Assembly: GCA_001781125.1 (NCBI GenBank)
Contig: MFKT01000009.1
Coordinates: 126,840 to 190,839 of the forward strand
DNA: 64,000 nucleotides
Direction: 5' to 3'
Source of the DNA: Candidatus Kaiserbacteria bacterium RIFCSPHIGHO2_01_FULL_53_29
Lineage (GTDB): Bacteria; Patescibacteriota; Minisyncoccia; Phycocordibacterales; UBA2100
The notes below the pieces were generated by a model, which did no database searches, had not been told where the DNA came from, and saw nothing but the letters and a program-made list of their open reading frames with translations. Below, in pieces: positions 27,265 to 49,700 of this stretch (within the stretch, counting starts at the first letter, position 1; each line of letters opens with the position of its first letter). Made by a program: the position numbers and the translations under genes.

Positions 27265-28185
27265 TCACTCGGCTTTTTCTTCAATGATGTTCCAATCATT
27301 CTTGCCATATCGCTTCGCGGCAACGATGGATGCCGCTGCAAGCAGCGCGAGCCCTGCAGCAGCCGCCCACCAGAGGTAGGAACTATTCGAGGCCGGTGCG
27401 GCCGCAGCGGCAGTGTCTGCGGTTGCCACTTGTTCGGGATCGGCTTCGGAAACGGGAACATCGGGAAGCGTGTTCGCAACATACGTGGGATCTGCCGGCG
27501 CAGATTTTGCTGCGGACTTTTTCGTGGTCGTCTTGGTCTTTGTTTTTGCTATCGGTGCTGCCTTCGGTGGAGGTGGTGGAATCACGTTGATAGACATAGC
27601 AGTGCCGGGGCTGGGTGAGCGTGCGATAAACGATGCATCTCCCGGTGCACGATTGAGAGAATTGCCGTCACCTGCGGCCCCAAGGGAGCTTTGATATGAA
27701 ACTGAATTGATATCGGTGCTGCTCGCAGTATGGAGCGCGATCGTCTCGCCGTCATTCCCCAAACTAAACGTGCTGTCAAAAAGTTGACCGGAAAAGTTTG
27801 GCCAATCTGCCCTGAACTTTGCCGAATTGTCTGCAATCACCGCATACGTACTTGGTGCAATCGAATCCCCGCCCGAAACGGCAGCGATCTTGTGATTCGT
27901 CCCGTTCTCAAACATCTTCCAACCGGTTAATTTCACGGGAGCTGTGCCAGAGTTAAATATTTCGATCCACTCGCGGCCCGAATCCGAGCCGCTCGAAAGA
28001 TCGTACATTATTTCGGTAATCACGACCTGCCCCGACGGTACCGTCGGGGCTTGTGCAAACGCTGCGCCTGGCATGAGCCCGACAATCACGAGTGCGCCGT
28101 AGAAAAATATATTACTGCGCAGAGTCGTCTCCGCCGCGCAGTACCCGCTGGAGTTCCTCGTGCGAGATCTCACCGTTTTGACCAT
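27265..28185 (-). CDS. Membrane-anchored lamin-tail-domain (LTD) protein with Lys/Thr/Pro-rich linker
   Basis: Within ORF 27265..28776, the real start is probably M at about 28185 (MVKTVRSRTRNSSGY...IFFYGALVIVGLMPGAAFAQA, a signal peptide). VVITEIMYDLSSGSDSGREWIEIFNSGTAPVKLTGWK is an LTD signature. The C-terminus (YLWWAAAAGLALLAAASIVAAKRYGKN) is a TM anchor. The first 197 codons of the ORF read a different frame of the upstream gene's tail. Confidence 0.6.
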   Translation of the reverse strand: MVKTVRSRTRNSSGYCAAETTLRSNIFFYGALVIVGLMPGAAFAQAPTVPSGQVVITEIMYDLSSGSDSGREWIEIFNSGTAPVKLTGWKMFENGTNHKIAAVSGGDSIAPSTYAVIADNSAKFRADWPNFSGQLFDSTFSLGNDGETIALHTASSTDINSVSYQSSLGAAGDGNSLNRAPGDASFIARSPSPGTAMSINVIPPPPPKAAPIAKTKTKTTTKKSAAKSAPADPTYVANTLPDVPVSEADPEQVATADTAAAAAPASNSSYLWWAAAAGLALLAAASIVAAKRYGKNDWNIIEEKAE

Positions 28186-29950: not shown

Positions 29951-31510
29951 TTAACGCGTAGCATCCGCCGGCGCGTACAGATCATGTACGAACGAGAGAA
30001 GTTTGCGAACATCCCCTTCCGCATCGCGTGAACCGAGCACAATGACTGCGATCGTACGATCTTGTGCCCCCACCTTGACGGTAAACGCCCCCGCATAGGT
30101 CTCCGCCGCTTCGTTTGTTTGGCCGACTTTTCCTCCAATGAGTTTCGCCGGAGCATTTTTAATGATGTTGAAGTTGCGAACATTCTTGAATGCCGGTGGT
30201 CCGTATGCGCTGTTTGCAATGTCACCAGAGGTAATGCCGAAGATAAAGCGACGATTTTCATAGATATGGCGCAGGAGGGTAAAGAGATCTTCAGGAGTCG
30301 AATAGTCGCCCTTCGCGCCTGAAGGATCAGAGAAAACCGTATGCGAGAGATTGATCGCTTTTGCTTTCTCATTCATGTAGGTCACGAACTGACTGCGGCC
30401 GCGCACCGATGCAAAGGTCTCCGCTGCTTCGTTGGATGATTCCTGGAGAAGTAGGAAGAGCAGGTCATACGCGCGCACCTCTGTCCCCGCTTTAAGGCGC
30501 GGTATCGAGGTGTAGACGAGTCCCTCCTTCGGCACGGTAACCGATTTGTCGAGATTGATGTATTCGGTGACGATAAGCGCAGAGACCAATTTTGATATCG
30601 ATGCGATGGGTGCTGCGACCGACGCACCCTTGCTCGAAAGTACGGTGCCGTTTTTCACGTCTGCGACAAGATACCCGGCAGCAGAAACCGGCGGCGCTTT
30701 GAGCTGATAGGTGAACGAGTCGCCCTGTGCTTCGACGTTGTACACGATCACCGGCATTCCGACCACGGTGAGATCGTAGACTTTCTTTGCATCATCAGTG
30801 GAAAGTCGGATGCAGCCACCCGAATACGATGAAGATACTGCTGTCCCGTCCGCATACGTGGGCCAGCCGTGAATGAAAAAGTTGCCCTGAAAATCGAGAC
30901 TCCATGGCTGATTCACCTCGCCGAATGTCGAGAAATGATTTCTCTCTTTCGATTGGATCTGATAGACGCCGGCAGGCGTTTCCCACCACGAACCTACTTT
31001 GCCCTTCGCAAGAACGGGAACCTCTATTTGCAAGACACCCCCGACATATACCACAAGCTTCATACTGGAAAGATTTGCATCAATGAACGACGCCTTTTGC
31101 TCCACGAGATTGCGCTTTACGTTTCTATAGTAATCGGGGTCCGAGAGCGCGGGCAATGCGCCGTATGTAAGAATGGGCCCCGTCGTCGATGCGGCCGATG
31201 AGGGAATGGATATCGAATAGACTACCGGCGGTTTGTACATGACGTACGCGGCAAAGGCGAGTGCCCCGAGTGCAGCAGCCCCAAGCACTGCGGTAGAAAT
31301 CGAAATATGCCATCGCCAAAGATCCGAACCATGCTCCGCGTGAGCAGGCATCTCTACGGCGGGCAAAACGGAACCCGCAGGCGCGAGCTTGGGCACAAGC
31401 TCCGCCTCGCCCCATCCCTCGAGCACCAGACGATTCACAATGATGCTGTCCGACATTCCCGTGCGTCGCAAATATTCTATACGCGGACTTGGATCTTCTG
31501 TTCGTGACAT
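29951..31510 (-). CDS. Fusion: L,D-transpeptidase (YkuD) domain + serine-type D-Ala-D-Ala carboxypeptidase (peptidase S11/PBP5-like) domain, N-terminal TM anchor
   Basis: The YkuD catalytic motif is FFIHGWPTYADG...SGGCIRLS. The S11 domain has ASISKLVSAL (SxxK), SSNEAAE (SxN) and GGKVGQT (KTG-like). Confidence 0.75.
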   Translation of the reverse strand: MSRTEDPSPRIEYLRRTGMSDSIIVNRLVLEGWGEAELVPKLAPAGSVLPAVEMPAHAEHGSDLWRWHISISTAVLGAAALGALAFAAYVMYKPPVVYSISIPSSAASTTGPILTYGALPALSDPDYYRNVKRNLVEQKASFIDANLSSMKLVVYVGGVLQIEVPVLAKGKVGSWWETPAGVYQIQSKERNHFSTFGEVNQPWSLDFQGNFFIHGWPTYADGTAVSSSYSGGCIRLSTDDAKKVYDLTVVGMPVIVYNVEAQGDSFTYQLKAPPVSAAGYLVADVKNGTVLSSKGASVAAPIASISKLVSALIVTEYINLDKSVTVPKEGLVYTSIPRLKAGTEVRAYDLLFLLLQESSNEAAETFASVRGRSQFVTYMNEKAKAINLSHTVFSDPSGAKGDYSTPEDLFTLLRHIYENRRFIFGITSGDIANSAYGPPAFKNVRNFNIIKNAPAKLIGGKVGQTNEAAETYAGAFTVKVGAQDRTIAVIVLGSRDAEGDVRKLLSFVHDLYAPADATR

Positions 31511-34389: not shown

Positions 34390-35727
34390 TTAATCGGTAA
34401 TTTGTTCGGCGATTTTATAAATATCGCCTGCGCCCATGGTGATGATGAGGTACCGGTCGTCGTAGCCGAGCAGTTTGCCGCGGATCTCGTCGAATGAATC
34501 AAGCGCCACTGAATCACCTCCATAGCGCTGGGTTACTTCTGCGACAACCTCATTCGTGACGGATGGATCCGGCTCTTCACGGGCAGCATAAATAGGCGCG
34601 ATGATGCTCTCATCTGCTGTGGCGAGTGCCCGCCCGAATTCTTGTAAGAGCGTACGCGTGCGGCTGTAGAGATGCGGGTGGAATGCGACGACGATTTTCT
34701 TGCTGCGCCCTCCGAAGCCTTTCTTTGCCCGTTCCGTAGCTTTAGCGGAGGCGGGGGCGAAGGACGGGTCGAGGAATTTCTCCCGCGCAGCTTGAATGGT
34801 TTTCGCGATGGCGGTCGGATGGTGCGCATAATCGTCATACACGAGAGCGCCGAGTGGCGTCTCGCCCTTGTATTCAAATCTTCGCCACGAGCCTTGAAAT
34901 CCAGTAAGCGCTTCATCGGCGCGAGCGCCGACGATATCGGGAAATGCCGTGAGTGCAGCGGCCTTGGCAGCTCGGGCATTCATGCGATTGAATTCGCCCA
35001 TCTGCGAGAGGGTGGGCACATCGAGATGCGTGTAATCGATGACTTTTGCACGCACATTTTTGAGGATAGGCGCGATGTTGGGATTCTTCGGATCGGTGAT
35101 GATGTGCCCGTGCGAAGACACTTTTTCTGCTGCTATGCGAAAGGTCTCCTGTAGCGCCGCAAGATCGGGAAAATAATCCGTGTGGTCGAGCTCGATATTC
35201 GTAATGACAAGAATCTCTGGTGAGAGCTTCAGTACGTGGTCGCGGTACTCGCATGCTTCAATGACAAAAAGGTCTGGGCGGCCCGCAAGAAAATTCGAAC
35301 CGAAATCGCGCACGATGGAGCCGATAATGGCCGTCGGCTCCTTCTTGGCCTGCGCAAGGATTACCGTAAGCATCCCCGTCGTGGTCGTCTTACCGTGCGT
35401 TCCTGCGACAGCAATGGTACGGGCAGGCGCTGAAACAACTCCGAGCGCCTCGAAATATGACATCCCCGGAATGTTCATCTCTTTTGCACGCATTCGCTCG
35501 ACGTTGGTCTCGGCCACCGCGTCAGAGTAGATGAGTAATTCCGTGCCTCGGGGAACATCATCATGCCCGATTGTCACCTCGATTCCCTTTTCTCGTAGCA
35601 TCAGCGTGACTGGCGATTCATCCCGATCCGACCCGCTCACCGACTTGCCTTGGTGGGCAAGAAGTTGCGCAAGCGCTGACATCCCGATGCCGCCGATGCC
35701 CACCATGTATATTGACTGGGGTATCAT
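34390..35727 (-). CDS. murC: UDP-N-acetylmuramate--L-alanine ligase
   Basis: Within ORF 34390..35982, the real start is the internal MIPQSIYMVGIGGIGMS at 35727. GTHGKTTTTGM is the Mur ligase P-loop. Confidence 0.85.
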   Translation of the reverse strand: MIPQSIYMVGIGGIGMSALAQLLAHQGKSVSGSDRDESPVTLMLREKGIEVTIGHDDVPRGTELLIYSDAVAETNVERMRAKEMNIPGMSYFEALGVVSAPARTIAVAGTHGKTTTTGMLTVILAQAKKEPTAIIGSIVRDFGSNFLAGRPDLFVIEACEYRDHVLKLSPEILVITNIELDHTDYFPDLAALQETFRIAAEKVSSHGHIITDPKNPNIAPILKNVRAKVIDYTHLDVPTLSQMGEFNRMNARAAKAAALTAFPDIVGARADEALTGFQGSWRRFEYKGETPLGALVYDDYAHHPTAIAKTIQAAREKFLDPSFAPASAKATERAKKGFGGRSKKIVVAFHPHLYSRTRTLLQEFGRALATADESIIAPIYAAREEPDPSVTNEVVAEVTQRYGGDSVALDSFDEIRGKLLGYDDRYLIITMGAGDIYKIAEQITD

Positions 35728-37538: not shown

Positions 37539-37802
37539 ATGCAGAAGACCGAGAAGAAACCAAAATTCGATTTTGAGGAGTTGAAGGCGGCGGCGACGAG
37601 CCTGAACGGAAAGACCCGGAAAAAAGTCTTTGAGGAATATTTCGAGCGCTTCGAGGAATTCCCCTCGTACCTCTTCGACAACACCAACGGCATCGATAGT
37701 CGCTTGCAAGAAACCATCCAGGATCTTAGGAACGACCCCGAGACGACCAAGCCGATGCTCAAAGGTATCGACGTCCTTATGCAGCGTCTCCCATCGCTTT
37801 GA
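37539..37802 (+). CDS. Small hypothetical protein
   Basis: 87 aa, charged. It has no recognisable motifs and overlaps the 3' end of the convergent gene by 26 bp. Confidence 0.25.
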   Translation: MQKTEKKPKFDFEELKAAATSLNGKTRKKVFEEYFERFEEFPSYLFDNTNGIDSRLQETIQDLRNDPETTKPMLKGIDVLMQRLPSL

Positions 37803-40299
37803 CGAGCGCCACGAATTGATCCCCCTTCTCCTCGAAATTCTTCCACAGTCCATAGCTCGGTGAAGCGCAGGAGAGAAGACACGCCGAGCCGTGCGGAGTA
37901 TTTTTGTACGCAAACTCGACCGCTTCTTTCATGTCCGAGGTTTCAAAAATATTCAAGCCTGTGCGATCTGCAAACATTCTTTTCCCGCTTTCCGGAAAGA
38001 GCACGATGTTTTTGACGTTGCGCGAACGAACTTCCTTTTCTAGTTCGGCGAAATCATACCCTCTGTCGTTTCCACCGAGAAATAGTGTCCCGACATCCGG
38101 TATCGCGCGAAGCGCAGCGATGGTGGACTCGGGCGTCGTCGATATTGCGTCGTCATAAAATAGGATTCCGTTGAACTCTCCGACCAGTTCGAGACGATGC
38201 GGAAGGCCTTTGAATGAACGTACTGCCTCTTCTATTTTTTTGTCGGGAACATCAAAGAGCCGGGCGACGGTAACGGCGGCCCTGACGTTATCGATATTGT
38301 GCTCGCCAAGCAAAGAAATTACTTTCGCATCAAACGGCAGATCGACAAACGGCATAGCTTTCGACCTTCCATCCTTGACCCATTTCTGCAATTCCGGAAC
38401 ACGTGGGTTATAGACAAATACATCTTCGCCTTCTTGGAATCGAATGATATTTTTCTTTGCCTCATAGTATCGCTCGACACCATCGTGATAATCCATGTGA
38501 TCGGGAAAGAGGTTCGTCACGACCGCAATGTGGGGCGAGAATTCGATGTCATCGAGCTGATAGCTCGAAAGTTCGAGAACTGAAATATCTTCTTCCGAAT
38601 GTTGCGACAAGAGATCGAGCATGGGAACTCCTATATTTCCCGCGAGATGCACTTTCAGTCCTGCATTTTTGAGAATGACATATATCAGGGATGCGGTCGT
38701 ACTTTTCCCCTTGCTTCCGGTAACGCCAATCGTCTTTCCCTTCCATTCTGAGAAAAAAATATTGGTCGCCGTTGTGTACTGTGCGCGAACTTTCTTTTTG
38801 GGGATACCCGGCGTCTTAAGAGCGATGTCGTAGCGATCCTGCTCGTCAAGATACTTCGTATCGGTCGCCTCGTCTGCAACACCGATGTCGAGATTCGGAT
38901 ACGTTTTGTGCAGATATGCTTCGCTCGCCAATCCTTCCTTTCCGTGGCCCAAAATAAGGGTATTTTTCATCCCGCAAAATCTAAAGCGCGTCGGCACTGT
39001 TAGAGCTTGCTGTGCATGCGTAGTCATTTTGATCAATGTCTCTCCATCCTCGATCCGCGGAAAAAAGGTTTGCACCACAGGAGAGTCCGCAAACGTATTA
39101 CGAATGAGGTACAGAGCAGCTTGTGCTTCATCAAAGGTACCGACGCAATCAAACGGCTTCATAGTTCCAAATCCGAGGATATCTTGGAAGAGGGGCTCGA
39201 GCTTCGGGTCGTTCAAGAGATCACGACCGAAGATATTGATAAGCTCCTTCCTCTCGATGAACGGCGCCAAAATCAAAAAGACGAACGCACACTTCGGACA
39301 TTCACAACACCATAGACCCTTCGGCCGCTTCGCCTCGTCAATTCTGAACGCCTTATTGCAGCTCGTGAAATGCTGGAAGTAGTTCGAGTGCCGCGCGAAC
39401 AGTTCGGCAATTCGTATTTCATAGAACGGTCGCAGAATTGAAAAATACGTTACCGAGCTCGTAACATATTCTCGAATGTAGTTCTGGAACAATGTTTCGA
39501 ATTCCGCAGATTTACTCCACTGATGATTTACGACCTCTCCGTTATGTTCGACGTTGCCGAAGTTGCTACTGTGCTCGTTGCCGACCACAACGTACTGGTA
39601 GTCGTAGAGTACCGCTGCAAGTGTTCCGAGAAATGCATAGATCGCGGAAATTGGAATATGGCCCGCAAAACTTCCCGGAAGTGGCTGGAATATTTTCTCG
39701 TCGAGAATGCGGAGGATTTTGAGCGATGTGATCCCGGCAACCTCGCACACTTCATCAACTATCTCGTGCGAGCGGTAGGTCTCGACAATAAATCCCGTGC
39801 AGAGATATTTTTGTTCTTTGAGCAACTCGATCGCAACGATTGAGTCTTTCCCGCCGCCGATACCGACGAGCACGCGGTTTTTTCGTACAAATTTAAACGG
39901 CGTCGGCGTCGGCACGTCGTCCGCGTACGGAAAGCGTATCCGCTCCCCCAAATCAAGATTGTTGCGGTACGCGAATTCTCCGAGGCCTTTGCGGTATATG
40001 GTGTTCCAAAAATCCGCTTGCGCCTTTGTAAGCTTTTGCTGCACGCGGATTTCCGGCGGACAATAGAGCTTGTAGTAGCTGATGCCAATCATCAGATGAA
40101 TATCATCTAACAATGCATCCAAAAGCGCGCTCGGCACATCAGTGAGATACGGTGCCGGTAGTACCACTACTTCACTGAACGAAATGGCCTTGCCATCTTC
40201 AAATCCCATTTCATAGTTACATACAATTTTCTTTCCTTCACGTGAAAATGTACGGGAAGTGAACCTGAAATAGGCCGCTTTTGGGTCCATGCGAGCCAT
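37777..40299 (-). CDS. murD: Fusion: N-terminal PP-loop (N-type ATP pyrophosphatase) domain + C-terminal UDP-N-acetylmuramoyl-L-alanine--glutamate ligase (MurD)
   Basis: The N-terminal ~420 aa have VLVGIGGGKDSIVAIELL (PP-loop SGGxDS-like) and a Cys cluster (WCCECPKC). The C-terminal ~420 aa are a MurD ligase: the Rossmann LILGHGKEGLASEAYL, the P-loop IGVTGSKGKSTTASL, and LELSSYQLDD. Confidence 0.75.
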   Translation of the reverse strand: MARMDPKAAYFRFTSRTFSREGKKIVCNYEMGFEDGKAISFSEVVVLPAPYLTDVPSALLDALLDDIHLMIGISYYKLYCPPEIRVQQKLTKAQADFWNTIYRKGLGEFAYRNNLDLGERIRFPYADDVPTPTPFKFVRKNRVLVGIGGGKDSIVAIELLKEQKYLCTGFIVETYRSHEIVDEVCEVAGITSLKILRILDEKIFQPLPGSFAGHIPISAIYAFLGTLAAVLYDYQYVVVGNEHSSNFGNVEHNGEVVNHQWSKSAEFETLFQNYIREYVTSSVTYFSILRPFYEIRIAELFARHSNYFQHFTSCNKAFRIDEAKRPKGLWCCECPKCAFVFLILAPFIERKELINIFGRDLLNDPKLEPLFQDILGFGTMKPFDCVGTFDEAQAALYLIRNTFADSPVVQTFFPRIEDGETLIKMTTHAQQALTVPTRFRFCGMKNTLILGHGKEGLASEAYLHKTYPNLDIGVADEATDTKYLDEQDRYDIALKTPGIPKKKVRAQYTTATNIFFSEWKGKTIGVTGSKGKSTTASLIYVILKNAGLKVHLAGNIGVPMLDLLSQHSEEDISVLELSSYQLDDIEFSPHIAVVTNLFPDHMDYHDGVERYYEAKKNIIRFQEGEDVFVYNPRVPELQKWVKDGRSKAMPFVDLPFDAKVISLLGEHNIDNVRAAVTVARLFDVPDKKIEEAVRSFKGLPHRLELVGEFNGILFYDDAISTTPESTIAALRAIPDVGTLFLGGNDRGYDFAELEKEVRSRNVKNIVLFPESGKRMFADRTGLNIFETSDMKEAVEFAYKNTPHGSACLLSCASPSYGLWKNFEEKGDQFVALVKAMGDAA

Positions 40300-40663: not shown

Positions 40664-43327
40664 ATGACACTCACCATAACAAAGCGCGACGGCATGAAGG
40701 AGGCCTTCAACGCCGACAAGATCAACCGCTCGATCGAACGTGCTTGCGAGGGCTTGCTCGATCCGATCGGGATGACGACACAGATCGCAACCGAAACAAA
40801 GCTCACGCTCTACGATGGCATCACGACCGAAGAAATGGATGCCGCGACGATCAACGCGGCCGTCCAGAACATCAAGGAAGACATCGAATACGACAAAGTC
40901 GCCGTCCGATTGCTTCTCAAAACCGTGTACCGGCGGGTCGTCGGCGAGTACAACCACGATGCAGCAGAGCTTGAGACAAAACACCGCGCACGGTTTCTGG
41001 AACACATCAAAAAACACGTTGCTGCAGGCCTGCTTGACGAACGCATGGGTACGCATTTTGATCTGGAGAAACTCGCCGCGGCACTCAAGATCGAGCGCGA
41101 CGAAGTTTTCACTTATGCAGGGCTCTCGTCACTCCTCGATCGCTACTCGATGCGCGATGAAAACCAGAAACGCATCGAATCGCCGCAATACTTCTTTATG
41201 CGTATCGCGATGGGTCTTTCCTACAACGAAAAGGATCCGACCGGGTGGGCGATCAAATTTTACGAAAAGATGTCGCGACACCTCTACATCGCCGGCGGCT
41301 CGACCAATATCGGAGCCGGAACGGCTCGACCCGCTTTGTCGAATTGTTTCCTGCTCGAAGTCCACGACGACATGGACCACATCGCGAAATCCGTCGCCGA
41401 CGTGATGAAGATATCGAAATCATCCGGCGGCATCGGTGTCTCGCTCACGAAGCTGCGCGCGGCGGGCTCTCCCCTCAAATCCTCCAACACGGTTTCGTCG
41501 GGTCCGACTCCTTTTGCAAAGATCATGGACACGGCCATCCGCGCGGTACAGCGCGGCGGCAAGAAGCTGGGTGCGCTCTGCTTCTACATGGAGAATTGGC
41601 ACTACGACTTCCCTGAATTCATCGACTGGAAGCACAACGCAGGAGACGACTACCTGCGCATGCGCACGGCCAATACCGCCGCGTTCATTTCGGACGAGTT
41701 CATGCGCCGTGTCGAGAAGGGAGAGGATTGGTACATGTTCGACCCCAAGGAGACCATGGATCTGAACGAGCTGTACGGGGCTGCGTTCAGCAAGCGTTAC
41801 CGCGAGTACGTGGAGATGGCTAAAAGCGGGAAGCTCCGCATGTTCAAAAAAGTGCCCGCGACCGAGCAGTGGCAAAACATCCTCACCGCCCTGCAATCCA
41901 CCTCGCACCCGTGGCTCACGTGGAAAGACCCCATCAACCTGCGCGCGCTCAACAACAACACCGGCACCATCCATATGTCCAATCTCTGCACCGAGATCTG
42001 CCTCCCGCAGGACAAAGACAACATCGCTGTGTGCAACCTCGCCTCGCTCAATCTCGCGGCACACATTCAGAACAAACAGATCAATTGGCGTGAACTCGAA
42101 GAAAGCGTGCGCCTCGCGGTGCGCCAGCTCGACAACCTCATCGATATCAACGTTCTGCCTATTCAAGAGGCGGCGCGCTCCGACAAGGAAAACCGTGCGG
42201 TGGGCCTCGGCGTCATGGGTTTTGCGGATGCATTAGAGCAGCTCTCCATGTCATACGAGAGCCCCCATGCGTGGGATTTCGCGGACCGCATCTTCGAATT
42301 CGTCAGTTACATCGCGATCGACGAGAGTGCGAACCTGGCGAGTGAACGCGGCTCCTACCATAATTTCGAAGGCTCGGGATGGTCCAAGGGAATGGTCCCG
42401 CTCGACACCATCGAGAGGATAGAGAAAGACCGCGGCGTCACCATCGATTTGCCGAAAATAACAAAACAGAAGCGGCTCGATTGGGCGCTGCTCCGGGAAA
42501 AAGTGAAGAGGGGTATGCGTAATGCGACTCTGATGGCGGTAGCACCAAACGCCAATATCGGCCTCGTCGCCGGTACAACTCCCGGCATTGATCCCAGGTT
42601 CGCGCAAGTATTCTCGCGCAACAAGATCTCGGGCAAGTACCTCGACCTCAACCACAACCTCGTGAAAGACCTCAAAAACATGGGGCTCTGGGATGAAGTG
42701 AAAGAGCAGATCATTGAGGATCAAGGCAACATCGCCCGTGTCGAGGGACTGCCGGCGTATCTGAAGGAGATCTACAAGACCGCGTTCACGACAAACCCGT
42801 ACGCGTACATCGAAGTGGCCGCGCGTGCGCAAAAATGGGTCGACCAAGCGCTCTCGCGCAACATGTACCTTGAGAGCCGCGATATGGAAGACATGAAAAA
42901 CGTCTACATGACGGCGTGGCGCAAGGGCCTGAAGACCACCTATTACCTGCATATGAAACCGCGCCATACGGCCGAGCAGTCAACGACGACTGTCAACAAA
43001 CAAGAGATGACCGGCAAACGCGGATTCGGCGCCATCAAAATGGCCGCCGCGGGTATCCCCGTGAATGCGACTCCCTCACCCCTCGAAATGAATACTCCCT
43101 CGCCGGTAAAGACCGAAGGATCCGTCGCCGTAATGGCTGAGGCGCCGCGCGGAGGATTCGCCGCCGTCGCCGCGCAGGCAGCGCAGGGCACAAGCGCGGA
43201 AGCTTCAGCGGCTCCGGAGGCTCCTGCACCAGCCTCGACCGAGCAGGCAAAGTCCGCCAAAACGTCCACGACCGACGCCCCCATGGACCCGGCCGACAAC
43301 CCGAACGTGTGCATCGCGTGCCAATGA
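40664..43327 (+). CDS. nrdA: Ribonucleoside-diphosphate reductase alpha subunit (class I) with N-terminal ATP-cone and C-terminal low-complexity extension
   Basis: ITKRDGMKEAFNADKINRSIERA is the ATP cone. NLCTEI is the active-site Cys/Glu motif. The C-terminal CIACQ is the Cys pair. About 90 aa of Ala/Pro-rich sequence sit before the C-terminus. Confidence 0.9.
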   Translation: MTLTITKRDGMKEAFNADKINRSIERACEGLLDPIGMTTQIATETKLTLYDGITTEEMDAATINAAVQNIKEDIEYDKVAVRLLLKTVYRRVVGEYNHDAAELETKHRARFLEHIKKHVAAGLLDERMGTHFDLEKLAAALKIERDEVFTYAGLSSLLDRYSMRDENQKRIESPQYFFMRIAMGLSYNEKDPTGWAIKFYEKMSRHLYIAGGSTNIGAGTARPALSNCFLLEVHDDMDHIAKSVADVMKISKSSGGIGVSLTKLRAAGSPLKSSNTVSSGPTPFAKIMDTAIRAVQRGGKKLGALCFYMENWHYDFPEFIDWKHNAGDDYLRMRTANTAAFISDEFMRRVEKGEDWYMFDPKETMDLNELYGAAFSKRYREYVEMAKSGKLRMFKKVPATEQWQNILTALQSTSHPWLTWKDPINLRALNNNTGTIHMSNLCTEICLPQDKDNIAVCNLASLNLAAHIQNKQINWRELEESVRLAVRQLDNLIDINVLPIQEAARSDKENRAVGLGVMGFADALEQLSMSYESPHAWDFADRIFEFVSYIAIDESANLASERGSYHNFEGSGWSKGMVPLDTIERIEKDRGVTIDLPKITKQKRLDWALLREKVKRGMRNATLMAVAPNANIGLVAGTTPGIDPRFAQVFSRNKISGKYLDLNHNLVKDLKNMGLWDEVKEQIIEDQGNIARVEGLPAYLKEIYKTAFTTNPYAYIEVAARAQKWVDQALSRNMYLESRDMEDMKNVYMTAWRKGLKTTYYLHMKPRHTAEQSTTTVNKQEMTGKRGFGAIKMAAAGIPVNATPSPLEMNTPSPVKTEGSVAVMAEAPRGGFAAVAAQAAQGTSAEASAAPEAPAPASTEQAKSAKTSTTDAPMDPADNPNVCIACQ

Positions 43328-43494
43328 TTATTATAGTTAGCTCCGATTAACCACCGACTTATGAAATCGGATGCAGTGCGAGGCGCGGGGAAAGCGGTGC
43401 GTGAGGCGTACAGAATGTACGATGAACGCGACGCTGGGGCCCCGCAACGACGCAATGCGCCGATTTCAGAAGTCCCGCTAAATAAAACAACTGT

Positions 43495-44490
43495 ATGCTA
43501 GTAGGTAAAGCATCTCCGGAGGACTACAACCTCCATCCGTCCCAGTACCCCTGGGCGACCGATCTGTACAATCAGGCGGTCCGCAACACGTGGTTCCCGC
43601 ACGAGATCGCGCTCAAAGAAGATCTCGACGATTGGGCGAAAATGACCGAAGACGAACGTCACGCGGTCGAATTCCTCGTCGCATTCTTCAATCCGGCGGA
43701 ATTGATCGTGAATCGTTCCATCGCTCTGGGAATTTATCCGTACCTCAAATCCGCCGAGTGCCATCTCTACCTCGCCAAACAAATGTGGGAGGAAGCCAAC
43801 CACTGTGTTGCGTTTGAATACGTCTTGCAGACCTTCCCGCTCGACCGCGAAAAGGTTTTTAGTCTGCACCAGCAGGTGCCTTCGATGAAAGAGAAAGAAG
43901 ACTTCATCAATAAATACATGAAGAGAATGACGGAAGACGAGCTCGATGTCTCGACACCGGACGGCAAAAAAGATTTCGTACGCAATCTTGTGGCTACCAA
44001 CATCGTGATGGAAGGCATATGGTTCTACTCCGGCTTCATGGTGGCATTGTCGTTTCGCCAGCGTAATCAACTACGCAACGTCGGCTCGCTTGTCACGTGG
44101 GTCTTGCGCGACGAATCGCTCCACCTCAAATTCGGCATCAATCTCATTCACGGCATCCTCGAAGAAAATCCGGAACTCCTGACGCAGGAATTCGCCGAGG
44201 AGATCCGCAATATCGTTATCGAGGGCGTCAACCTCGAGACGACCTTCAACCGTGACCTTTTCCCGCGCGGTATCTTGGGGCTCAACGCCGATTACGTAAA
44301 TCAATACGTGCAATATGTCGCCGACAGGCGCTTGATCGAGCTCGGGCTCGAGAAACACTACAACGCCACCAACCCCGCCAAATGGATGTCCACCGCGACC
44401 GACGTCTTCGAACTCGTCAATTTCTTCGAGGCGCAGAACACCAACTACGAGGTCAACTCCGGCGACAGCGAGAAAAAGAAAGCTTCTTAG
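43495..44490 (+). CDS. nrdB: Ribonucleoside-diphosphate reductase beta subunit (class Ia)
   Basis: EANHCVAFEY, NIVMEGIWFYSGF and LRDESLHL are di-iron/tyrosyl-radical R2 motifs. Confidence 0.9.
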   Translation: MLVGKASPEDYNLHPSQYPWATDLYNQAVRNTWFPHEIALKEDLDDWAKMTEDERHAVEFLVAFFNPAELIVNRSIALGIYPYLKSAECHLYLAKQMWEEANHCVAFEYVLQTFPLDREKVFSLHQQVPSMKEKEDFINKYMKRMTEDELDVSTPDGKKDFVRNLVATNIVMEGIWFYSGFMVALSFRQRNQLRNVGSLVTWVLRDESLHLKFGINLIHGILEENPELLTQEFAEEIRNIVIEGVNLETTFNRDLFPRGILGLNADYVNQYVQYVADRRLIELGLEKHYNATNPAKWMSTATDVFELVNFFEAQNTNYEVNSGDSEKKKAS

Positions 44491-45209
44491 GGACGCTTTC
44501 GCGGGAACAGTGGCGCGTACATGTCGTCCTTGAGAGGAATCAACAATTCCTTTTTGTTGACTTGAGCAACGAACTCAACAGAGGCATCCTCGATGATTGC
44601 GAGCGGCTGACGCTCGCTTCCCTCGCCCATCGCAAGTGTTGCGGCCGTCGCAAGAGAGTCGGCGACGTTGGTCTGTGTGAACTTCAGTTTTCTACCGAAA
44701 ATATCTTTTTTGCCCCGATAATCGCGTAACCCCCGAAGCCCCGCATACCCGAGTGCCACACCGACGACTCCCGCTCGTAGTGGCATTACGCGACTGTCGG
44801 TGATAACGATGCCGAGTTTCTTTATTTTGTATTTTTGCAAAAGACTACTACGAAGTTTCTGTGCGGTAGCGAATGAATCCTCCGGCAAGAGGATCAGTTT
44901 CCCGCTCGCCCCGCCACCGGCGGGGTCAACATTCGATTCATCGACTCCCGCATTCGCCAAGATCATTCCGTCTTTCTCCGTGAGCCACACATATTTCGTC
45001 TTGATCGCCCATTCGCTCTCCGCTTTAATTACTGCTGCCTTCTGCCTGGTGCCTTTTGCCTGACTTGTCCTTCCCTCTGCAAGCGCAACGATCTTCGACG
45101 TCACCGCTACGATCGAACCATCTTTCAGTTTCGGAATATGCCGCGTAACGAACGCAACAAGGTCCTCGTCCTCTTTAAAAAAACGGGTTTTGATCGGCCG
45201 TATATTCAT
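44487..45209 (-). CDS. F420-0:gamma-glutamyl ligase (CofE)-like family protein
   Basis: 240 aa. IVAVTSKIVALAEGR and LANAGVDESN resemble the CofE/F420-ligase fold. The function in this organism is unclear. Confidence 0.45.
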   Translation of the reverse strand: MNIRPIKTRFFKEDEDLVAFVTRHIPKLKDGSIVAVTSKIVALAEGRTSQAKGTRQKAAVIKAESEWAIKTKYVWLTEKDGMILANAGVDESNVDPAGGGASGKLILLPEDSFATAQKLRSSLLQKYKIKKLGIVITDSRVMPLRAGVVGVALGYAGLRGLRDYRGKKDIFGRKLKFTQTNVADSLATAATLAMGEGSERQPLAIIEDASVEFVAQVNKKELLIPLKDDMYAPLFPRKRP

Positions 45210-45789: not shown

Positions 45790-46143
45790 AAAAATGGGTT
45801 GATTTTTCATGGCCCTGGAGATTCGGCTGGAGGCGGAGGAGTCGGCTCTGGCTGTGGCTCGCCGGAGCCTTCGGCAGACTGTGTCTCGCCAGAGGCGGAC
45901 TCCGTCCCGCCGACGGCGGAGGCGGCTGGCGGTTCAGGACTTGGCGCAGGAGAAGGTGTTGTACCGGAGCCTGAGGAGTCACCTCAGGCTCCGGCGGCTC
46001 CCGCCGTCTGCCCCGAGAGCAACGCCTTCAGCTGTTCCTCGTTGACACAGGTGTCGTTGATGCAAAGCTGCTCTTTGGCGCGGAACGTGCGGGCGAAGAC
46101 TTCCTGAATGCCGTTCCCGGCATCGGCGAGCCATTCCGCTAAA
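45790..46143 (-). pseudogene. Degenerate fragment homologous to the 3' end of the giant gene at 46728..62771 (no start codon, frameshifted)
   Basis: The minus-strand frame reads LAEWLADAGNGIQEVFARTFRAKEQLCINDTCVNEEQLKALLSGQTAGAAGA*. This aligns with GIFDSVYARIFTTDELVFKRGTGDELTVKKLCLEDVCVTREEFKALLDKNGTQ near the giant protein's C-terminus. Downstream it continues, frameshifted, into a P/E/A-rich stretch like the giant's tail. Nucleotides 46018-46143 also resemble 47138-47300. Confidence 0.5.
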
Positions 46144-46435
46144 GGCCCGTGCGATGTTTAGTTTTTGGATTGCGCGAGGTATGGAACACGCCAATCACCT
46201 CCACGAGATCATCGGTGATTGTGTAGATCAGCAGCATGGGCAATCCGGGTATCGGACGCTCATACGAGTCGGTCTCGCCATCGAAGCGTGCTGCGCGCGG
46301 AAAGACCTTGAGTGCCTTCACGGCCATATCTACCCGCGCCGCAATGTCCGGCGCATGCGAAGGTGACCGTTTGGCGACGAACGATAGGATGCTTGCCACA
46401 TCGCCGAGTGCTTCGGCGGTGTAGGCCACTTTCAT
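46139..46435 (-). CDS. RelE/ParE-family type II toxin
   Basis: 98 aa. MKVAYTAEALGDVASILSFVAKRSP...LIYTITDDLVEVIGVFHTSRNPK shows the typical ParE-fold layout. Confidence 0.6.
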   Translation of the reverse strand: MKVAYTAEALGDVASILSFVAKRSPSHAPDIAARVDMAVKALKVFPRAARFDGETDSYERPIPGLPMLLIYTITDDLVEVIGVFHTSRNPKTKHRTGL

Positions 46436-46727: not shown

Positions 46728-49700
46728 TCATGGCGTTTCCGTTGGTGCCGGAATTTGTTCTGGAGCGGGCTCCGGTGCCGGAGCGGGCGCGGGTTCTGGC
46801 GCGGGCTCCGGAGCGGGTTCTGGCGCGGGAGCTGGCGCGGGAGCTGGCTCCGGCGAAGGTGCGGGCTCGGGGGCGGGAGACGCTTCTTGCGGCGCGGCCT
46901 CGGCCGCGCCGCCTCCCGTATCTGCCGGAGCTTCTTCAACAGGGGCGTCTGCGGACGGCTCCTCGGCAGGCGAGTCCGGAGTCTCGCTTGGCGTGTCTCC
47001 CGCCGGTTCTTCCGCGGGCGGCGATTCAGGAGCAGGGGTTGGTTCTGGCACGGGTTCTGGCGCGGGAGCGGGAACGGGCGAACTTCCTCCCCCACTTGCT
47101 GCGGCAGCTGCCGATTGCGCACTCTGTGTGCCATTTTTGTCGAGCAGCGCCTTAAATTCCTCGCGCGTCACGCAGACATCTTCGAGGCAGAGCTTTTTGA
47201 CCGTGAGCTCATCGCCCGTTCCCCGCTTAAAGACGAGCTCGTCGGTCGTGAAGATGCGCGCATAGACGCTGTCGAAGATGCCGGCCACCGCGTAGATCGC
47301 GCTGTTGTACGCACGAACTACCATACCACCAAGACCCTCGAGCGCACTCTTCAGCCCATCCGATGCATCCGCGAATGCCGCGTACCACGGCGTCGTGGTC
47401 GCGAATTCTTCCCGCGGCGTCGTCGTCGCGTTCACTATTTCCGCCACGCTCGTTGTCGCGACAAGCGCGTCGAATTTCGCGTCGAGTTCTTGGATAGCGC
47501 CGATGGCAGGCGCGATTAGCTGTGTGTAGTCAAGCCCGAGGTAGCCGTTCTCAGGGTCAACGATAGAGATGGTATTGGGGAAATACTGCTGTACATTCTG
47601 CGCGAGAAAGCCAAGCTGAGTGGTGGAAGCCCCTATCATGTTGAAGGAGACTGGATTGAGTTGCAAAATTTTGGACAGCGAGCTGCCGAGAGAGGAGATG
47701 TTCTCCTTAAGCCGCTCGTCGGACACGTCGGTGATGGTGCCGGTGTACTCGATGTCTCCTGTGACGTCGAGCGCGACGGAGGGATCGGTCATGGCGATGC
47801 CGACGTTGCCTGCGTTGGTCACGATGAGGTGCGTCGTCGAAGAGCCGATGTAGAAGGAAGGAGACGTGTCTACGCCGCTCGGGAGGATGGAGAGGCGGCC
47901 CCATGGCGTCGAGGTGCCAATGCCGACGTTGCTCGAGAAGACGGCTCGACCGTCGACGGTGAGAGAAGGTGTGGAAGAAGCGGCTGTTGATGTCGCACTC
48001 TGGCCGATGCGGAGGCCGGTGCGGACGAACATTTCTTCCGCCATCGTGTATCCGGCATCAGAGACAGTGAGGTACGGGTAGTCGGCGCTGTTGCCGATGT
48101 GGAGGAGCGGCGAGGAGAATTGGTAGGTGCTGAGTGAGTCATTGAAGTCATCAATAAACGCCACGCGGTTGGGCGAGAGGGCGGCAAGAGCGGGAGTATC
48201 CTCTATACCGGAAATAGTGAGGCTGCTTCCTACTTGAGACCAAGTTGAGCCGTTAAATTCATAGACTGTGAGTAAATCGTGGTCTGAATGGAAGAACGCC
48301 ACGCGGTTCGGTGACATCGCCGCAAGCGCAGGAAAAGCCGCGTGATAGGCTGTAAGAGCCAGTGAGCTCCCGACTTTTGTCCATGTCGTGCCATTAAATT
48401 CGTATGTCGAAAGGCTATCAAGAGTTCGATCAGTGTACGCAATGCGGTTTGAATTAAGCGCTGCGATGGCGCCTTGAGAAAAACTTCCCGACGGTGTAAT
48501 GCTACTCCCGATAGATGACCATACGGATCCATTAAACTCATATGCTTGCACGACGCCAGTATCGTTATCAAGGAGAGCGATACGATTTGGGGCCAGTGCG
48601 GCAAGACTTGGAGTCTGACCTATACTACTCACTGTCAATCCACTACCTATTTGAGACCAACTAGAAACTCCGAATTCGTACACTCGGAGCGAGTCGTTAT
48701 TCGCGTCAAGATATGCGATGCGACTGGGAGAAAGCGCGGCAATCCCAACAACTTGATTACTGATCGTTATTGCAAGAGCGCTTCCCTGTTGAGTCCACGA
48801 GGCTCCGTCGAAAACATATTTTCTGAGTGAACCGCTACCGCTTACGAATGCCACAGAGTTGGGCGAAAGTGTCGCTATTGTAGGATAAACATGCGATAGA
48901 GATAGCGTGTTCCCCACCTGCGCCCACGTCTGTGCGAGTCCTGCTGATGAGATGGTCAATCTTCCTGTCGTCGAAGCATTGGAGCCGATGCCGAAATTTC
49001 CATTTGCCGAAAGATACATCGACGATGTGGCGGTGAGTGTGGTGCCGACGTACGAGAGCGTCTGCCCTGCGGTGCCGGATGGGAGTGAATCTCCGGCGAT
49101 GAGACACGAGCCAGAGATGGAGAAACATCCTCCCGCCAGATCAATGCCTCTTGCAAATGTGGAGGTCGCGGCAGTGCCGGTCACATTGAGGTATGGAGTA
49201 TCGAGTCCGTTGTAGATAGTGGAGGTGGCGGAGGCGTAGAAGTTGGCGGATGCGTTGATGGAGAAAAGCGAACCGGGAGTCGTCGTCCCGATACCGACGT
49301 TTCCAGCGTTGGTGACGATGAAGTGTGTCGTGGATGAACCGATGTAGAAAGAGGGGTCAGTGCCAACGCCGCTCGGGAGGATGGAGACCTTGCCCCATGG
49401 AGTGGAAGTCCCGACACCGACGTTGCTCGAGAAGACGGCTCGACCGTCGACGGTGAGGGATGGTGTGGAAGAAGCGGCTGTTGATGTCGCACTCTGGCCA
49501 ATGCGCAGACCGGTGCGGACGAACATCTCTTCCGCCATCGTGTATCCGGCATCAGAAACAGTGAGGTACGGATAGTCGATGCTGTTGCCAACGTGGAGGA
49601 GCGGCGAGGAGAATTGGTAGGTGCGGAGGGAGTCGTTGGTGACGTCAATGTATGCGACGCGGTTGGGCGAGAGCGTTGCTAGCGCAGGGATCGCGACGCC

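What the first reader, a model, noticed from the sequence alone, without database searches (positions are those of the whole stretch)
37777..40299. PP-loop ATPase domain fused to MurD; possible MurD2/MurL-type route to peptidoglycan D-glutamate
The 840-aa protein is a full MurD ligase preceded by a ~420-aa domain with a PP-loop-like GGGKDS motif and a Cys cluster (CCECPKC). PP-loop enzymes adenylate carboxylates. An ATP-dependent UDP-MurNAc-L-Ala-L-Glu epimerase (MurL) partnered with an L-Glu-adding MurD2 has been described in Xanthomonas as an alternative to glutamate racemase. From memory I cannot confirm that MurL belongs to the PP-loop family. If this N-terminal domain is MurL-like, the fusion would couple L-Glu ligation and epimerisation in one polypeptide, which would be a new arrangement. 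If it is not, the fusion still points to an unknown ATP-dependent modification tied to stem-peptide synthesis.
Basis: inference. Interest (0 to 1): 0.7.

Follow-up and report, generated by a model that had tools for sequence, protein, structure and literature searches.

The report
Fused MurL epimerase–MurD ligase gene
One 840-residue protein of an uncultured ultra-small (CPR/Patescibacteria) bacterium joins the two enzymes of the known alternative route that puts D-glutamate into the cell wall (add L-glutamate, then invert it using ATP); this fusion is common in that bacterial radiation, is already auto-annotated in databases, and I found no study of it.

Summary
An 840-aa ORF lies on the minus strand at 37777-40299, with GGGKDS at residues 148-153 and CCECPKC at 331-337, followed by a complete MurD.

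Residues 9-415 match NCBIfam MurL (E=1e-104) and Pfam MurL_N plus MurL_epimerase_C. They are 39% identical to the annotated Xanthomonas sacchari MurL, whose gene lies directly upstream of murD in the same order as the fused domains.

The MurD half carries MurD2-type residues: Ile for E. coli K319, Arg for K348, Pro for A414 and Tyr for L416. Eleven canonical MurDs always have Lys319 and never Pro414. It has Asp, not Glu, at the E197 position; 102 of 120 homologues have Glu.

The fusion is not unique. At least 319 CPR species genomes carry it, often in the mraY–murD–ftsW slot. Close relatives have the split form, and UniRef labels it a "Multifunctional fusion protein". I found no paper describing it.

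Verdict: a new variant of a known system, of moderate interest. Absence of murI and the enzyme activities remain untested.

The parts
37777..40299 (-). Whole murL-murD fusion ORF, 840 aa plus stop
   Evidence: ORF list and translation. The identical product is on 14 contigs, and the four places shown come from different samples or runs.
39010..40299 (-). [quoted passage not shown]
   Evidence: NF041275 at E=1.1e-104 over residues 9-415. Pfam MurL_N plus MurL_epimerase_C. 39% identity over 389 aa to X. sacchari MurL. AF2 pLDDT 95, pTM 0.94.
39265..39888 (-). QueC-like PP-loop alpha/beta core of MurL (approximately residues 138-345; boundaries inferred from secondary structure)
39841..39858 (-). 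PP-loop motif GGGKDS (residues 148-153), the inferred ATP pyrophosphate-binding loop
   Evidence: [S/G]GGKDS is conserved in 120 of 120 fused homologues and in X. sacchari MurL. It is at least 98% conserved in 150 diverse MurL-family sequences. Coordinates were verified.
39511..39528 (-). Invariant NHQWSK motif (residues 258-263), a candidate for active-site residues
   Evidence: Conserved in 120 of 120 fused homologues and identical in X. sacchari MurL. H259 and K263 are 100% conserved in the 150-sequence family set. A catalytic role is inferred.
39289..39360 (-). Cys4 cluster C314-X16-C331-X2-C334-X2-C337, an inferred QueC-type structural metal (Zn) site
   Evidence: All four Cys are present in 120 of 120 fused homologues and in X. 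sacchari MurL. They are about 95% conserved family-wide. E. coli QueC has the same C...C-X2-C-X2-C pattern (sequence). Metal binding was not tested.
39139..39159 (-). KPFDCVG motif with C385, the most conserved Cys and the candidate catalytic acid/base or thioester nucleophile of the epimerase
   Evidence: C385 is conserved in 120 of 120 fused homologues and in 149 of 150 family members, more than the Cys4 cluster. Its role is inferred.
37777..38979 (-). Complete MurD-type ligase module (residues 441-840), inferred to be MurD2-like and to add L-Glu
   Evidence: TIGR01087 at 270 bits over the whole model. Pfam Mur_ligase_M and Mur_ligase_C. Best PDB matches are MurD structures 3lk7 and 2jff.
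38698..38718 (-). Mur ligase ATP-binding P-loop GSKGKST (residues 528-534)
   Evidence: Conserved in the homologues and aligned to E. coli GSNGKST (K115).
38500..38502 (-). D600, equivalent to E. coli MurD D182 and X. oryzae MurD2 E197; canonical-type here
   Evidence: Asp in the query and 18 of 120 homologues, Glu in 102 of 120 and in X. sacchari MurD2. E197D altered stereospecificity in X. oryzae MurD2 (PMC8788868).
38143..38145 (-). I719, equivalent to E. coli MurD K319; MurD2-type
   Evidence: Ile in 107 of 120 fused homologues, in X. sacchari MurD2 and in the unfused L089 MurD. Lys in 11 of 11 canonical MurDs. E. coli K319T gains L-Glu acceptance (PMC8788868).
38062..38064 (-). R746, equivalent to E. 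coli K348 and MurD2 R358
   Evidence: Arg in 120 of 120 homologues. Firmicute canonical MurDs also have Arg, so it is not diagnostic alone.
37852..37860 (-). P814-S815-Y816, equivalent to E. coli A414-S415-L416 and MurD2 P433-S-F435
   Evidence: Pro in 120 of 120 and Tyr in 118 of 120 homologues. Pro occurs in 0 of 11 canonical MurDs.
34390..35727 (-). murC (445 aa), which supplies the substrate UDP-MurNAc-L-Ala; same strand, three called genes downstream
   Evidence: TIGR01082 at 356 bits against a cutoff of 335. The called gene is in L004. murC follows the fused gene in 10 of 80 related loci.

Best explanation
The gene encodes a bifunctional enzyme that carries out both steps of the MurD2/MurL alternative route to the D-glutamate of peptidoglycan. 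The C-terminal Mur-ligase module (residues 441-840) uses ATP (to ADP) to add L-glutamate to UDP-MurNAc-L-Ala, which the nearby MurC makes. The N-terminal MurL module (residues 1 to about 430) is built on a QueC-like PP-loop ATP-pyrophosphatase core. It uses a second ATP (to AMP) to adenylate the terminal glutamate carboxylate, which acidifies the alpha-proton. [quoted passage not shown] The fusion is simply the Xanthomonas-type murL-murD operon with the intergenic stop lost. It fixes 1:1 stoichiometry and may keep the L-Glu intermediate from escaping. Shown here: homology of both halves, the fold class, motif conservation, gene order and synteny. Taken from the literature for the Xanthomonas enzymes: L-Glu ligation, unidirectional ATP/AMP-dependent epimerisation. 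Inferred: the same activities in this protein, the roles of individual residues, and any channeling.
Against: This protein has Asp600 where X. oryzae MurD2 has Glu197, and E197D changed stereospecificity in that enzyme, so it may also accept D-Glu. The NF041275 score (350 bits) is below the 700-bit equivalog cutoff of a model built for Xanthomonadales. Overall identity of the MurD half is no higher to X. sacchari MurD2 (29-30%) than to canonical MurDs (25-32%), so the MurD2 call rests on a few positions. Absence of murI, dat or a moonlighting DapF from the genome was not testable; none was found in the 64 kb window or in about 1.3 Mb of related loci, which is uninformative. There are no biochemical data for any CPR member. 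PP-loop membership rests on a predicted structure; sequence-only matches are weak.
Confidence: 0.8

Rival explanations
1. The MurD half is a normal D-Glu ligase fed by a racemase encoded elsewhere. The MurL module is auxiliary, for example repairing stem peptides into which L-Glu was misincorporated, or it is non-essential.
For: D600 is the canonical-type residue at the position where E197D shifted MurD2 specificity. TIGR01087 (murD, D-Glu ligase) is passed at 270 bits. The genome outside the window is unseen.
Against: K319, which is Lys in 11 of 11 canonical MurDs, is Ile here. Pro814 is never seen in canonical MurDs. X. sacchari MurD2 also passes TIGR01087 at 298 bits, so that model does not discriminate. 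All MurL motifs are intact and under strong conservation. The closest relative with Glu at this position (P0003, 68% identity) is otherwise the same protein.
Confidence: 0.1
2. The MurL-like module in CPR catalyses a different ATP-dependent, adenylate-mediated modification of the stem peptide. An example would be amidation of a Glu carboxylate, as QueC, NAD synthetase and asparagine synthetase amidate via acyl-adenylates. On this reading it does not epimerise.
For: The closest folds, QueC and nitrile synthetase ArtA, together with NadE and AsnB-like enzymes, are amidating or nitrile-forming PP-loop enzymes. The NF041275 score is below the equivalog cutoff. There are no biochemical data for CPR.
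Against: There is 39% identity over the whole MurL length to the Xanthomonas enzyme, with every family-invariant motif shared. The same obligatory pairing with a MurD bearing MurD2 residues is seen. No glutaminase or ammonia-channel domain is present.
Confidence: 0.05
3. The 840-aa ORF is an artefact: two adjacent genes (murL and murD) merged by a sequencing or assembly error that removed a stop codon.
For: murL and murD are adjacent or overlapping in unfused genomes. One 50%-identity cluster (Roizmanbacteria) contains both fused (865 aa) and split (448 + 417 aa) forms.
Against: The identical 840-aa product is on 14 contigs, and the places shown come from two ENA assemblies and two SRA runs. 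319 species-level genomes encode full-length collinear relatives. The junction is well aligned and modelled at pLDDT about 95.
Confidence: 0.02

Closest known systems
MurD2 (XOO_1320) + MurL (XOO_1319) of Xanthomonas oryzae, the alternative D-Glu route to peptidoglycan (Feng et al. 2017; reviews PMC5808125, PMC8788868)
   Same: Both components are present, in the same gene and domain order (murL then murD). The MurL halves are 39% identical with all motifs shared. The MurD half shares MurD2-type residues at the K319, K348, A414 and L416 positions.
   Different: Here there is one polypeptide instead of two proteins. The host is CPR/Patescibacteria rather than the Xanthomonadales, Alphaproteobacteria and rare actinomycetes listed in the reviews. 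This protein has Asp, not Glu, at the E197 position. The MurD halves are only about 30% identical. No activity has been measured.
Canonical MurD (D-Glu ligase, e.g. E. coli b0088; PDB 2jff, 3lk7) working with glutamate racemase MurI
   Same: The three-domain Mur ligase architecture is complete, with the P-loop, H183, K198, D317, T321 and S415 equivalents conserved. In many relatives the gene occupies the same dcw position between mraY and ftsW.
   Different: Lys319 is replaced by Ile and Ala414 by Pro. The protein is fused to an epimerase. The inferred substrate is L-Glu, so no free D-Glu pool is needed, and a second ATP is spent.
QueC (7-cyano-7-deazaguanine synthase, PDB 3bl5) and the QueC-like CBASS protein Cap9 (PDB 9nto), both PP-loop ATP pyrophosphatases
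   Different: Sequence identity is only 12-17%. A profile comparison aligns only the PP-loop, 22 columns. MurL adds an N-terminal domain of about 135 residues and a C-terminal helical region of about 90 residues. Its outcome is epimerisation followed by hydrolysis, not amide or nitrile formation.
Other natural fusions of Mur ligases with partner enzymes: MurC-Ddl (NF011171), MurF-alanine racemase (NF008897), MurE-MurF (NF008896)
   Same: These set a precedent for fusing a stem-peptide ligase to the enzyme that provides or handles its D-amino-acid building block. The family names appear among the weaker NCBIfam hits.
   Different: The partners and the order of reactions differ. Here the stereo-inversion happens after ligation, on the nucleotide-peptide.

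Membership tests
[quoted passage not shown] | Full-length sequence homology to characterised or annotated MurL | tested here: met
   NF041275 at E=1.1e-104, residues 9-415 against model positions 7-411 of 447. 39% identity over 389 aa to X. sacchari MurL. Pfam MurL_N and MurL_epimerase_C are precomputed for this exact protein.
[quoted passage not shown] | Score above NCBIfam's equivalog cutoff (700 bits) | tested here: not met
   The score is 350 bits. The model is named for Xanthomonadales. X. sacchari MurL scores 836 and a Pseudonocardia homologue 323. The cutoff therefore delimits close orthologues, not the family.
[quoted passage not shown] | Family-invariant motifs (GGKDS, NHQWSK, Cys4 cluster, KPFxCVG) | tested here: met
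   All are present in the query, in 120 fused homologues and in X. sacchari MurL. They are at least 95% conserved in 150 diverse members.
[quoted passage not shown] | Genetic pairing with a MurD-type ligase | tested here: met
   The query is fused to one. The genes are adjacent in X. sacchari and in the unfused dcw cluster of L089.
[quoted passage not shown] | ATP/Mg-dependent, unidirectional L-to-D epimerisation with AMP release | not testable with these tools
   This is known only for the Xanthomonas, Micromonospora and Salinispora enzymes (PMC5808125, PMC8788868).
MurD2, L-glutamate-adding MurD | Glu at the X. oryzae E197 position (E. coli D182) | tested here: not met
   The query has D600. 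Among fused homologues, 102 of 120 have Glu and 18 of 120 have Asp.
MurD2, L-glutamate-adding MurD | Arg at the R358 position (E. coli K348) | tested here: met
   The query has R746, and Arg is present in 120 of 120 homologues. This is not exclusive: Bacillus, Listeria and S. aureus canonical MurDs also have Arg.
MurD2, L-glutamate-adding MurD | Pro and an aromatic residue at the P433 and F435 positions (E. coli A414, L416) | tested here: met
   The query has P814 and Y816. Pro occurs in 0 of 11 canonical MurDs, whereas an aromatic at 416 is common in canonical enzymes. Mutating these residues did not change specificity in X. oryzae.
MurD2, L-glutamate-adding MurD | Loss of the Lys equivalent to E. 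coli K319 (K319T lets E. coli MurD accept L-Glu) | tested here: met
   I719 here, and Ile in X. sacchari MurD2 and the L089 MurD. Lys in 11 of 11 canonical MurDs. This discriminator is my own, drawn from a small control set.
MurD2, L-glutamate-adding MurD | L-Glu (not D-Glu) substrate specificity, and a genome lacking murI and dat | not testable with these tools
   There is no MurI homologue in the 64 kb window or in 80 related loci, but the rest of the genome is unavailable.
PP-loop ATP pyrophosphatase superfamily (adenine nucleotide alpha-hydrolase fold, QueC-like) | SGGxDS-type loop after the first beta-strand of the nucleotide-binding domain | tested here: met
   The sequence is GGGKDS, following strand 140-146 and starting helix 151-162. 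The first residue is Ser in 26 of 120 homologues.
PP-loop ATP pyrophosphatase superfamily (adenine nucleotide alpha-hydrolase fold, QueC-like) | Fold similarity to solved PP-loop enzymes | tested here: met
PP-loop ATP pyrophosphatase superfamily (adenine nucleotide alpha-hydrolase fold, QueC-like) | Significant sequence-profile match to a PP-loop family | tested here: inconclusive
   Pfam tRNA_Me_trans gives E=0.0066, below its cutoff. PDB MnmA gives E=0.12. hhalign against E. coli QueC aligns 22 columns at probability 4%.
Canonical MurD (TIGR01087) | Score above the equivalog cutoff over the full model | tested here: met
   270 bits against a cutoff of 212. X. sacchari MurD2 also passes at 298 bits, so the model does not separate MurD from MurD2, and the default name 'D-glutamate ligase' may be wrong.

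The most novel reading that the evidence does not exclude
In a large part of the Candidate Phyla Radiation the fused MurL-MurD2 enzyme is the only source of peptidoglycan D-glutamate, with no glutamate racemase. The so-called alternative pathway would then be the main one in a radiation that holds a sizeable share of bacterial diversity. The two active sites, held in a fixed geometry, would pass the L-Glu intermediate directly between them. MurL would also be established as a QueC-like PP-loop enzyme whose invariant Cys385 performs the inversion on an acyl-adenylate or thioester.
Probability: 0.35. Interest if true: 0.65.

Novelty: new variant of a known kind. Interest (0 to 1): 0.45.

Why it matters
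The MurD2/MurL route has been described as a curiosity of Xanthomonadales, a few Alphaproteobacteria and rare actinomycetes. The reviews I could read say MurL "lacks known conserved domains". This locus, and the hundreds like it, show three things.

- The route is widespread in CPR/Patescibacteria, often as a single gene in the housekeeping murD slot. Automated annotation that calls these genes 'D-glutamate ligase', and metabolic reconstructions that look for murI, may therefore be wrong for these organisms.
- MurL has a QueC-like PP-loop core. This gives a concrete structural basis for its ATP-to-AMP chemistry and a short list of candidate catalytic residues.
- A natural, compact and confidently modelled fusion is a convenient object for solving the first MurL structure and for testing intermediate channeling.

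It is an extension of a known system, not a new kind of system.

Tried and rejected
- **Local Pfam copy.** It lacks the MurL families and gave only Mur_ligase_M/C plus a sub-threshold PP-loop hit. The MurL Pfam names came from precomputed annotations.
- **PDB sequence search with the N-half.** No solved MurL was found, only E>0.1 PP-loop matches to MnmA.
- **hhalign of a 150-sequence MurL profile against E. coli QueC.** It aligned only the PP-loop, so the QueC relationship rests on predicted structure.
- **Overall similarity of the MurD half.** It does not separate MurD2 from MurD: 29-30% identity to X. sacchari MurD2 against 25-32% to 11 canonical MurDs. TIGR01087 passes for both. I did not attempt a deep phylogeny.
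- **phmmer with E. coli MurI.** There were no hits against all ORFs of the window and 80 related loci. This is uninformative, because murI need not be linked.
- **Reaching the rest of the 124.6 kb source contig.** One flank showed only more glycan-synthesis genes.
- **Foldseek against afdb50.** The library was unavailable.
- **Literature searches for the fusion, for MurL in CPR, and for murI absence in CPR.** None turned up anything. The paper on Saccharimonas MurI is not held.
- **Rfam and tRNA scans of the window.** Both were empty.
- **Rejected readings.** An unrelated PP-loop enzyme (TilS, QueC or MnmA) is rejected because the MurL model scores about 100 orders of magnitude better. An assembly artefact is rejected because the identical protein is on 14 contigs and the four places shown come from different samples.
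Full report
**What is there.** The interval 37777-40299 holds one uninterrupted ORF on the minus strand, with an ATG start, encoding 840 aa. GGGKDS lies at residues 148-153, and the cysteine cluster is C314...W-C331-C-E-C334-P-K-C337. The C-terminal half (residues 448-834) covers the whole murD equivalog model TIGR01087 (positions 3-440 of 441) at 270 bits against a cutoff of 212. It also has Pfam Mur_ligase_M and Mur_ligase_C. Its best matches among solved structures are MurD enzymes.

The identical 840-aa product is recorded on 14 contigs, and the four places shown come from two ENA assemblies and two SRA runs. At least 120 full-length collinear homologues of 52-68% identity exist. The ORF is therefore not an assembly accident. 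The window is part of a 124.6 kb metagenomic contig (ENA ERZ4903055). Its closest named relatives are Candidatus Kaiserbacteria and other Patescibacteria/CPR.

**Identity of the N-terminal half.**
- Residues 9-415 match NCBIfam NF041275 (MurL, UDP-N-acetyl-alpha-D-muramoyl-L-alanyl-L-glutamate epimerase) at E=1.1e-104 over essentially the whole model.
- Precomputed Pfam annotation of this exact protein lists PF26299 MurL_N and PF26298 MurL_epimerase_C. My local Pfam copy lacks these families.
- A search of the plasmid collection found a Xanthomonas sacchari replicon with an annotated murL. The query's N-half is 39% identical to it over 389 residues, E=1e-81.
- The NF041275 score (350 bits) is below the 700-bit equivalog cutoff. 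That model is tuned to Xanthomonadales: X. sacchari scores 836 bits and a Pseudonocardia homologue 323.
- GGGKDS, NHQWSK, S-C-N, W-C-x2-C-x-K-C and KPF[DE]CVG are shared with the Xanthomonas protein and are invariant or nearly so in 120 fused homologues. They are at least 95% conserved in 150 diverse family members.

**Is MurL a PP-loop enzyme?** The reviews I could read state that MurL "lacks known conserved domains", needs ATP/Mg, releases AMP, and is hypothesised to adenylate the substrate (PMC5808125, PMC8788868). No MurL structure is in the PDB by sequence search.

GGGKDS sits where the SGGxDS loop belongs, after strand 140-146 and at the start of helix 151-162, and 26 of 120 homologues have Ser first. 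The C...C-X2-C-X2-C pattern mirrors that of QueC (E. coli QueC sequence).

Sequence-only evidence is weak. tRNA_Me_trans gives E=0.0066, MnmA gives E=0.12, and hhalign to QueC aligns 22 columns. The superfamily assignment therefore rests on a predicted structure plus the motif. It gives a structural rationale for the ATP-to-AMP chemistry.

The four clustered cysteines are about 95% conserved, and a few members lack them, as is typical of a structural metal site. C385 in KPFDCVG is 99% conserved, and H214, H259 and K263 are 100% conserved. I take these as the best candidates for the acid/base (or thioester) chemistry. This is inference.

**Which kind of MurD?** The reviews report four positions in X. 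oryzae MurD2 that differ from E. coli MurD near the glutamate site.

| X. oryzae MurD2 | E. coli MurD | This protein |
|---|---|---|
| E197 | D182 | D600 |
| R358 | K348 | R746 |
| P433 | A414 | P814 |
| F435 | L416 | Y816 |
| (X. sacchari: Ile) | K319 | I719 |

E197D and R358K each change stereospecificity, and the double mutant switches MurD2 to D-Glu. E. coli K319T gains L-Glu acceptance. X. sacchari MurD2 has E, I, R, P and F at the five positions, and the MurD next to an unfused MurL (L089) has E, I, R, P and Y. Among 120 fused homologues the counts are Glu 102 / Asp 18, Ile 107, Arg 120, Pro 120 and Tyr 118.

As a control I fetched 10 canonical murD genes from mis-filed chromosomes in the plasmid collection and added E. 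coli. They cover Gamma-, Beta- and Alphaproteobacteria, Bacteroidota, Chlamydiota, Bacilli and Clostridia. All 11 have Lys at position 319 and Ala or Ser, never Pro, at position 414. Arg348 occurs in the Bacilli, and an aromatic residue at 416 is common.

The fused MurD therefore carries the two residues that separate MurL-linked from canonical MurDs in this small sample, plus Arg. It has the canonical-type Asp at the experimentally most telling position. Overall identity does not help: about 30% to MurD2 against 25-32% to canonical enzymes. TIGR01087 also accepts X. sacchari MurD2, which explains why NCBI names these proteins D-glutamate ligases.

**Context and distribution.**
- In X. sacchari, murL precedes murD and overlaps it by 20 nt, matching the domain order of the fusion.
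- A standalone relative (P0133, 42% identity) sits in a dcw cluster: mraY-murL-murD-x-ftsW-murG-ftsQ-ftsA.
- A pattern scan of one genome per GTDB species found 319 genomes encoding a full-length relative. The 80 kept are almost all labelled Kaiser-, Moran-, Uhr-, Staskawicz-, Nomura-, Buchanan-, Peregrini-, Peri- or Parcubacteria, or Patescibacteria.
- In about 26 of those 80 loci the fused gene is followed directly by ftsW-murG, and in 9 of these mraY precedes it, which is the normal murD place. In 10 others, as in this window, murC follows nearby.
- No second MurD-like ORF is in the window.
- An exhaustive HMMER search with the MurL half found 2680 50%-identity clusters (1224 at E<1e-30). 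The best 150 are a mix of standalone proteins of about 450 aa and fused proteins of about 800-915 aa.
- One Roizmanbacteria cluster contains both the fused 865-aa form and the split 448 + 417-aa form. UniRef calls the fused form "Multifunctional fusion protein" and the split one MurL.
- A rough neighbour-joining tree of the MurL domain intersperses the fused and unfused states, with at least 16 changes among 150 tips. This suggests the stop codon between the two genes is gained and lost easily. The tree is crude, so this is only indicative.

**Mechanism proposed.** MurC, encoded at 34390-35727 on the same strand, makes UDP-MurNAc-L-Ala. The C-terminal module adds L-Glu (ATP to ADP, with P-loop GSKGKST). 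[quoted passage not shown]

Because MurL is reported to act only L to D, a MurL fused to a D-Glu-adding ligase would have nothing to do. The fusion itself is thus evidence for L-Glu ligation.

The full-length AF2 model has pLDDT 92.8 and pTM 0.90, with no low-confidence linker. This argues for a fixed mutual orientation of the modules. The route costs two ATP per D-Glu and needs no racemase and no free D-Glu pool, which would suit organisms with minimal metabolism. That last point is speculation.

**What remains open.**
- Whether this genome, and CPR genomes with the fusion generally, lack murI, dat or a moonlighting DapF. None is in the 64 kb window or in about 1.3 Mb of related loci, but that is uninformative.
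- Whether D600 relaxes specificity.
- Every enzymatic claim for the CPR protein.

**Novelty.** The pathway and both enzyme families are known and in curated databases, and the fused proteins are already auto-annotated. Searches of the held literature found no paper that mentions the fusion, MurL in CPR, or MurL as a PP-loop or QueC-like enzyme. The two reviews list only Xanthomonadales, some Alphaproteobacteria and rare actinomycetes, with low-similarity hits in cyanobacteria, a fungus and an amoeba. I cannot exclude a mention in the original 2017 and 2019 papers, which are not held.

I therefore rate this a new variant of a known kind, of moderate interest. Its claim of a "new arrangement" overstates the novelty.

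Noticed in passing
window 29951-31510 (-): A 519-aa protein combines a YkuD L,D-transpeptidase domain (residues 142-256) with a Peptidase_S11 D,D-carboxypeptidase domain (residues 271-489). This is a second fusion of two consecutive peptidoglycan enzymes in the same window, since the carboxypeptidase makes the tetrapeptide donor that L,D-transpeptidases use.
   Followed up: partly
window 46728-62771 (-): A giant 5347-aa ORF carries an N-terminal HTH_17, Kelch and LVIVD repeats, several beta-propeller and Tectonin regions, and a Peptidase_S74 intramolecular-chaperone domain near the C-terminus. It looks like a surface or fibre protein, and GC skew rises over it.
   Followed up: partly
window 1-27250 (mostly -), continuing beyond the window in L102: A glycan-synthesis cluster of more than 35 kb includes many GT4 glycosyltransferases, two CMP-sugar cytidylyltransferases, DegT aminotransferases, Polysacc_synt_2 dehydratase, Capsule_synth proteins and an ABC exporter. 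Just outside the window lies NeuB, so the cluster probably makes a nonulosonic-acid-containing surface polysaccharide.
   Followed up: partly
window 27265-29926 (-): A TrwB/VirD4-like type IV secretion coupling protein (604 aa) lies next to a Lamin-tail-domain (LTD) protein. The two longest ORFs overlap in different frames, and the LTD gene as called on the source contig starts later.
   Followed up: no
window 40664-45209: Class I ribonucleotide reductase (nrdA with ATP-cone, nrdB) is divergent from the murL-murD gene. It is followed by an F420_ligase-family gene that best matches TIGR04132 'putative folate metabolism gamma-glutamate ligase'. A ParE toxin gene lies at 46139-46435.
   Followed up: no
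L002:3890-5290 (Pseudonocardia alni plasmid pPaSha1) and two other Pseudonocardia plasmids: Standalone MurL-like genes (323 bits to NF041275, annotated hypothetical) sit on mobilizable actinomycete plasmids with no adjacent murD. The neighbour is a 1300-aa WD40 protein. Their role there is unexplained.
   Followed up: partly
L010, L038, L044, L055, L059, L065 (match spans 3.4-3.8 kb instead of about 2.5 kb): In several related loci the tblastn match to the fused protein spans about 1 kb more than the gene. This is probably because the adjacent murC is picked up as a second Mur-ligase segment (murC follows directly in L010, L038, L055, L059 and L065; no murC was detected in L044), but an insertion was not excluded.
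   Followed up: no
L073: One Uhrbacteria locus has an additional 489-aa Mur-ligase ORF upstream of the fused gene. Among my queries it scored best against MurD. It may be MurE or MurF rather than a second MurD, and I did not resolve this.
   Followed up: no
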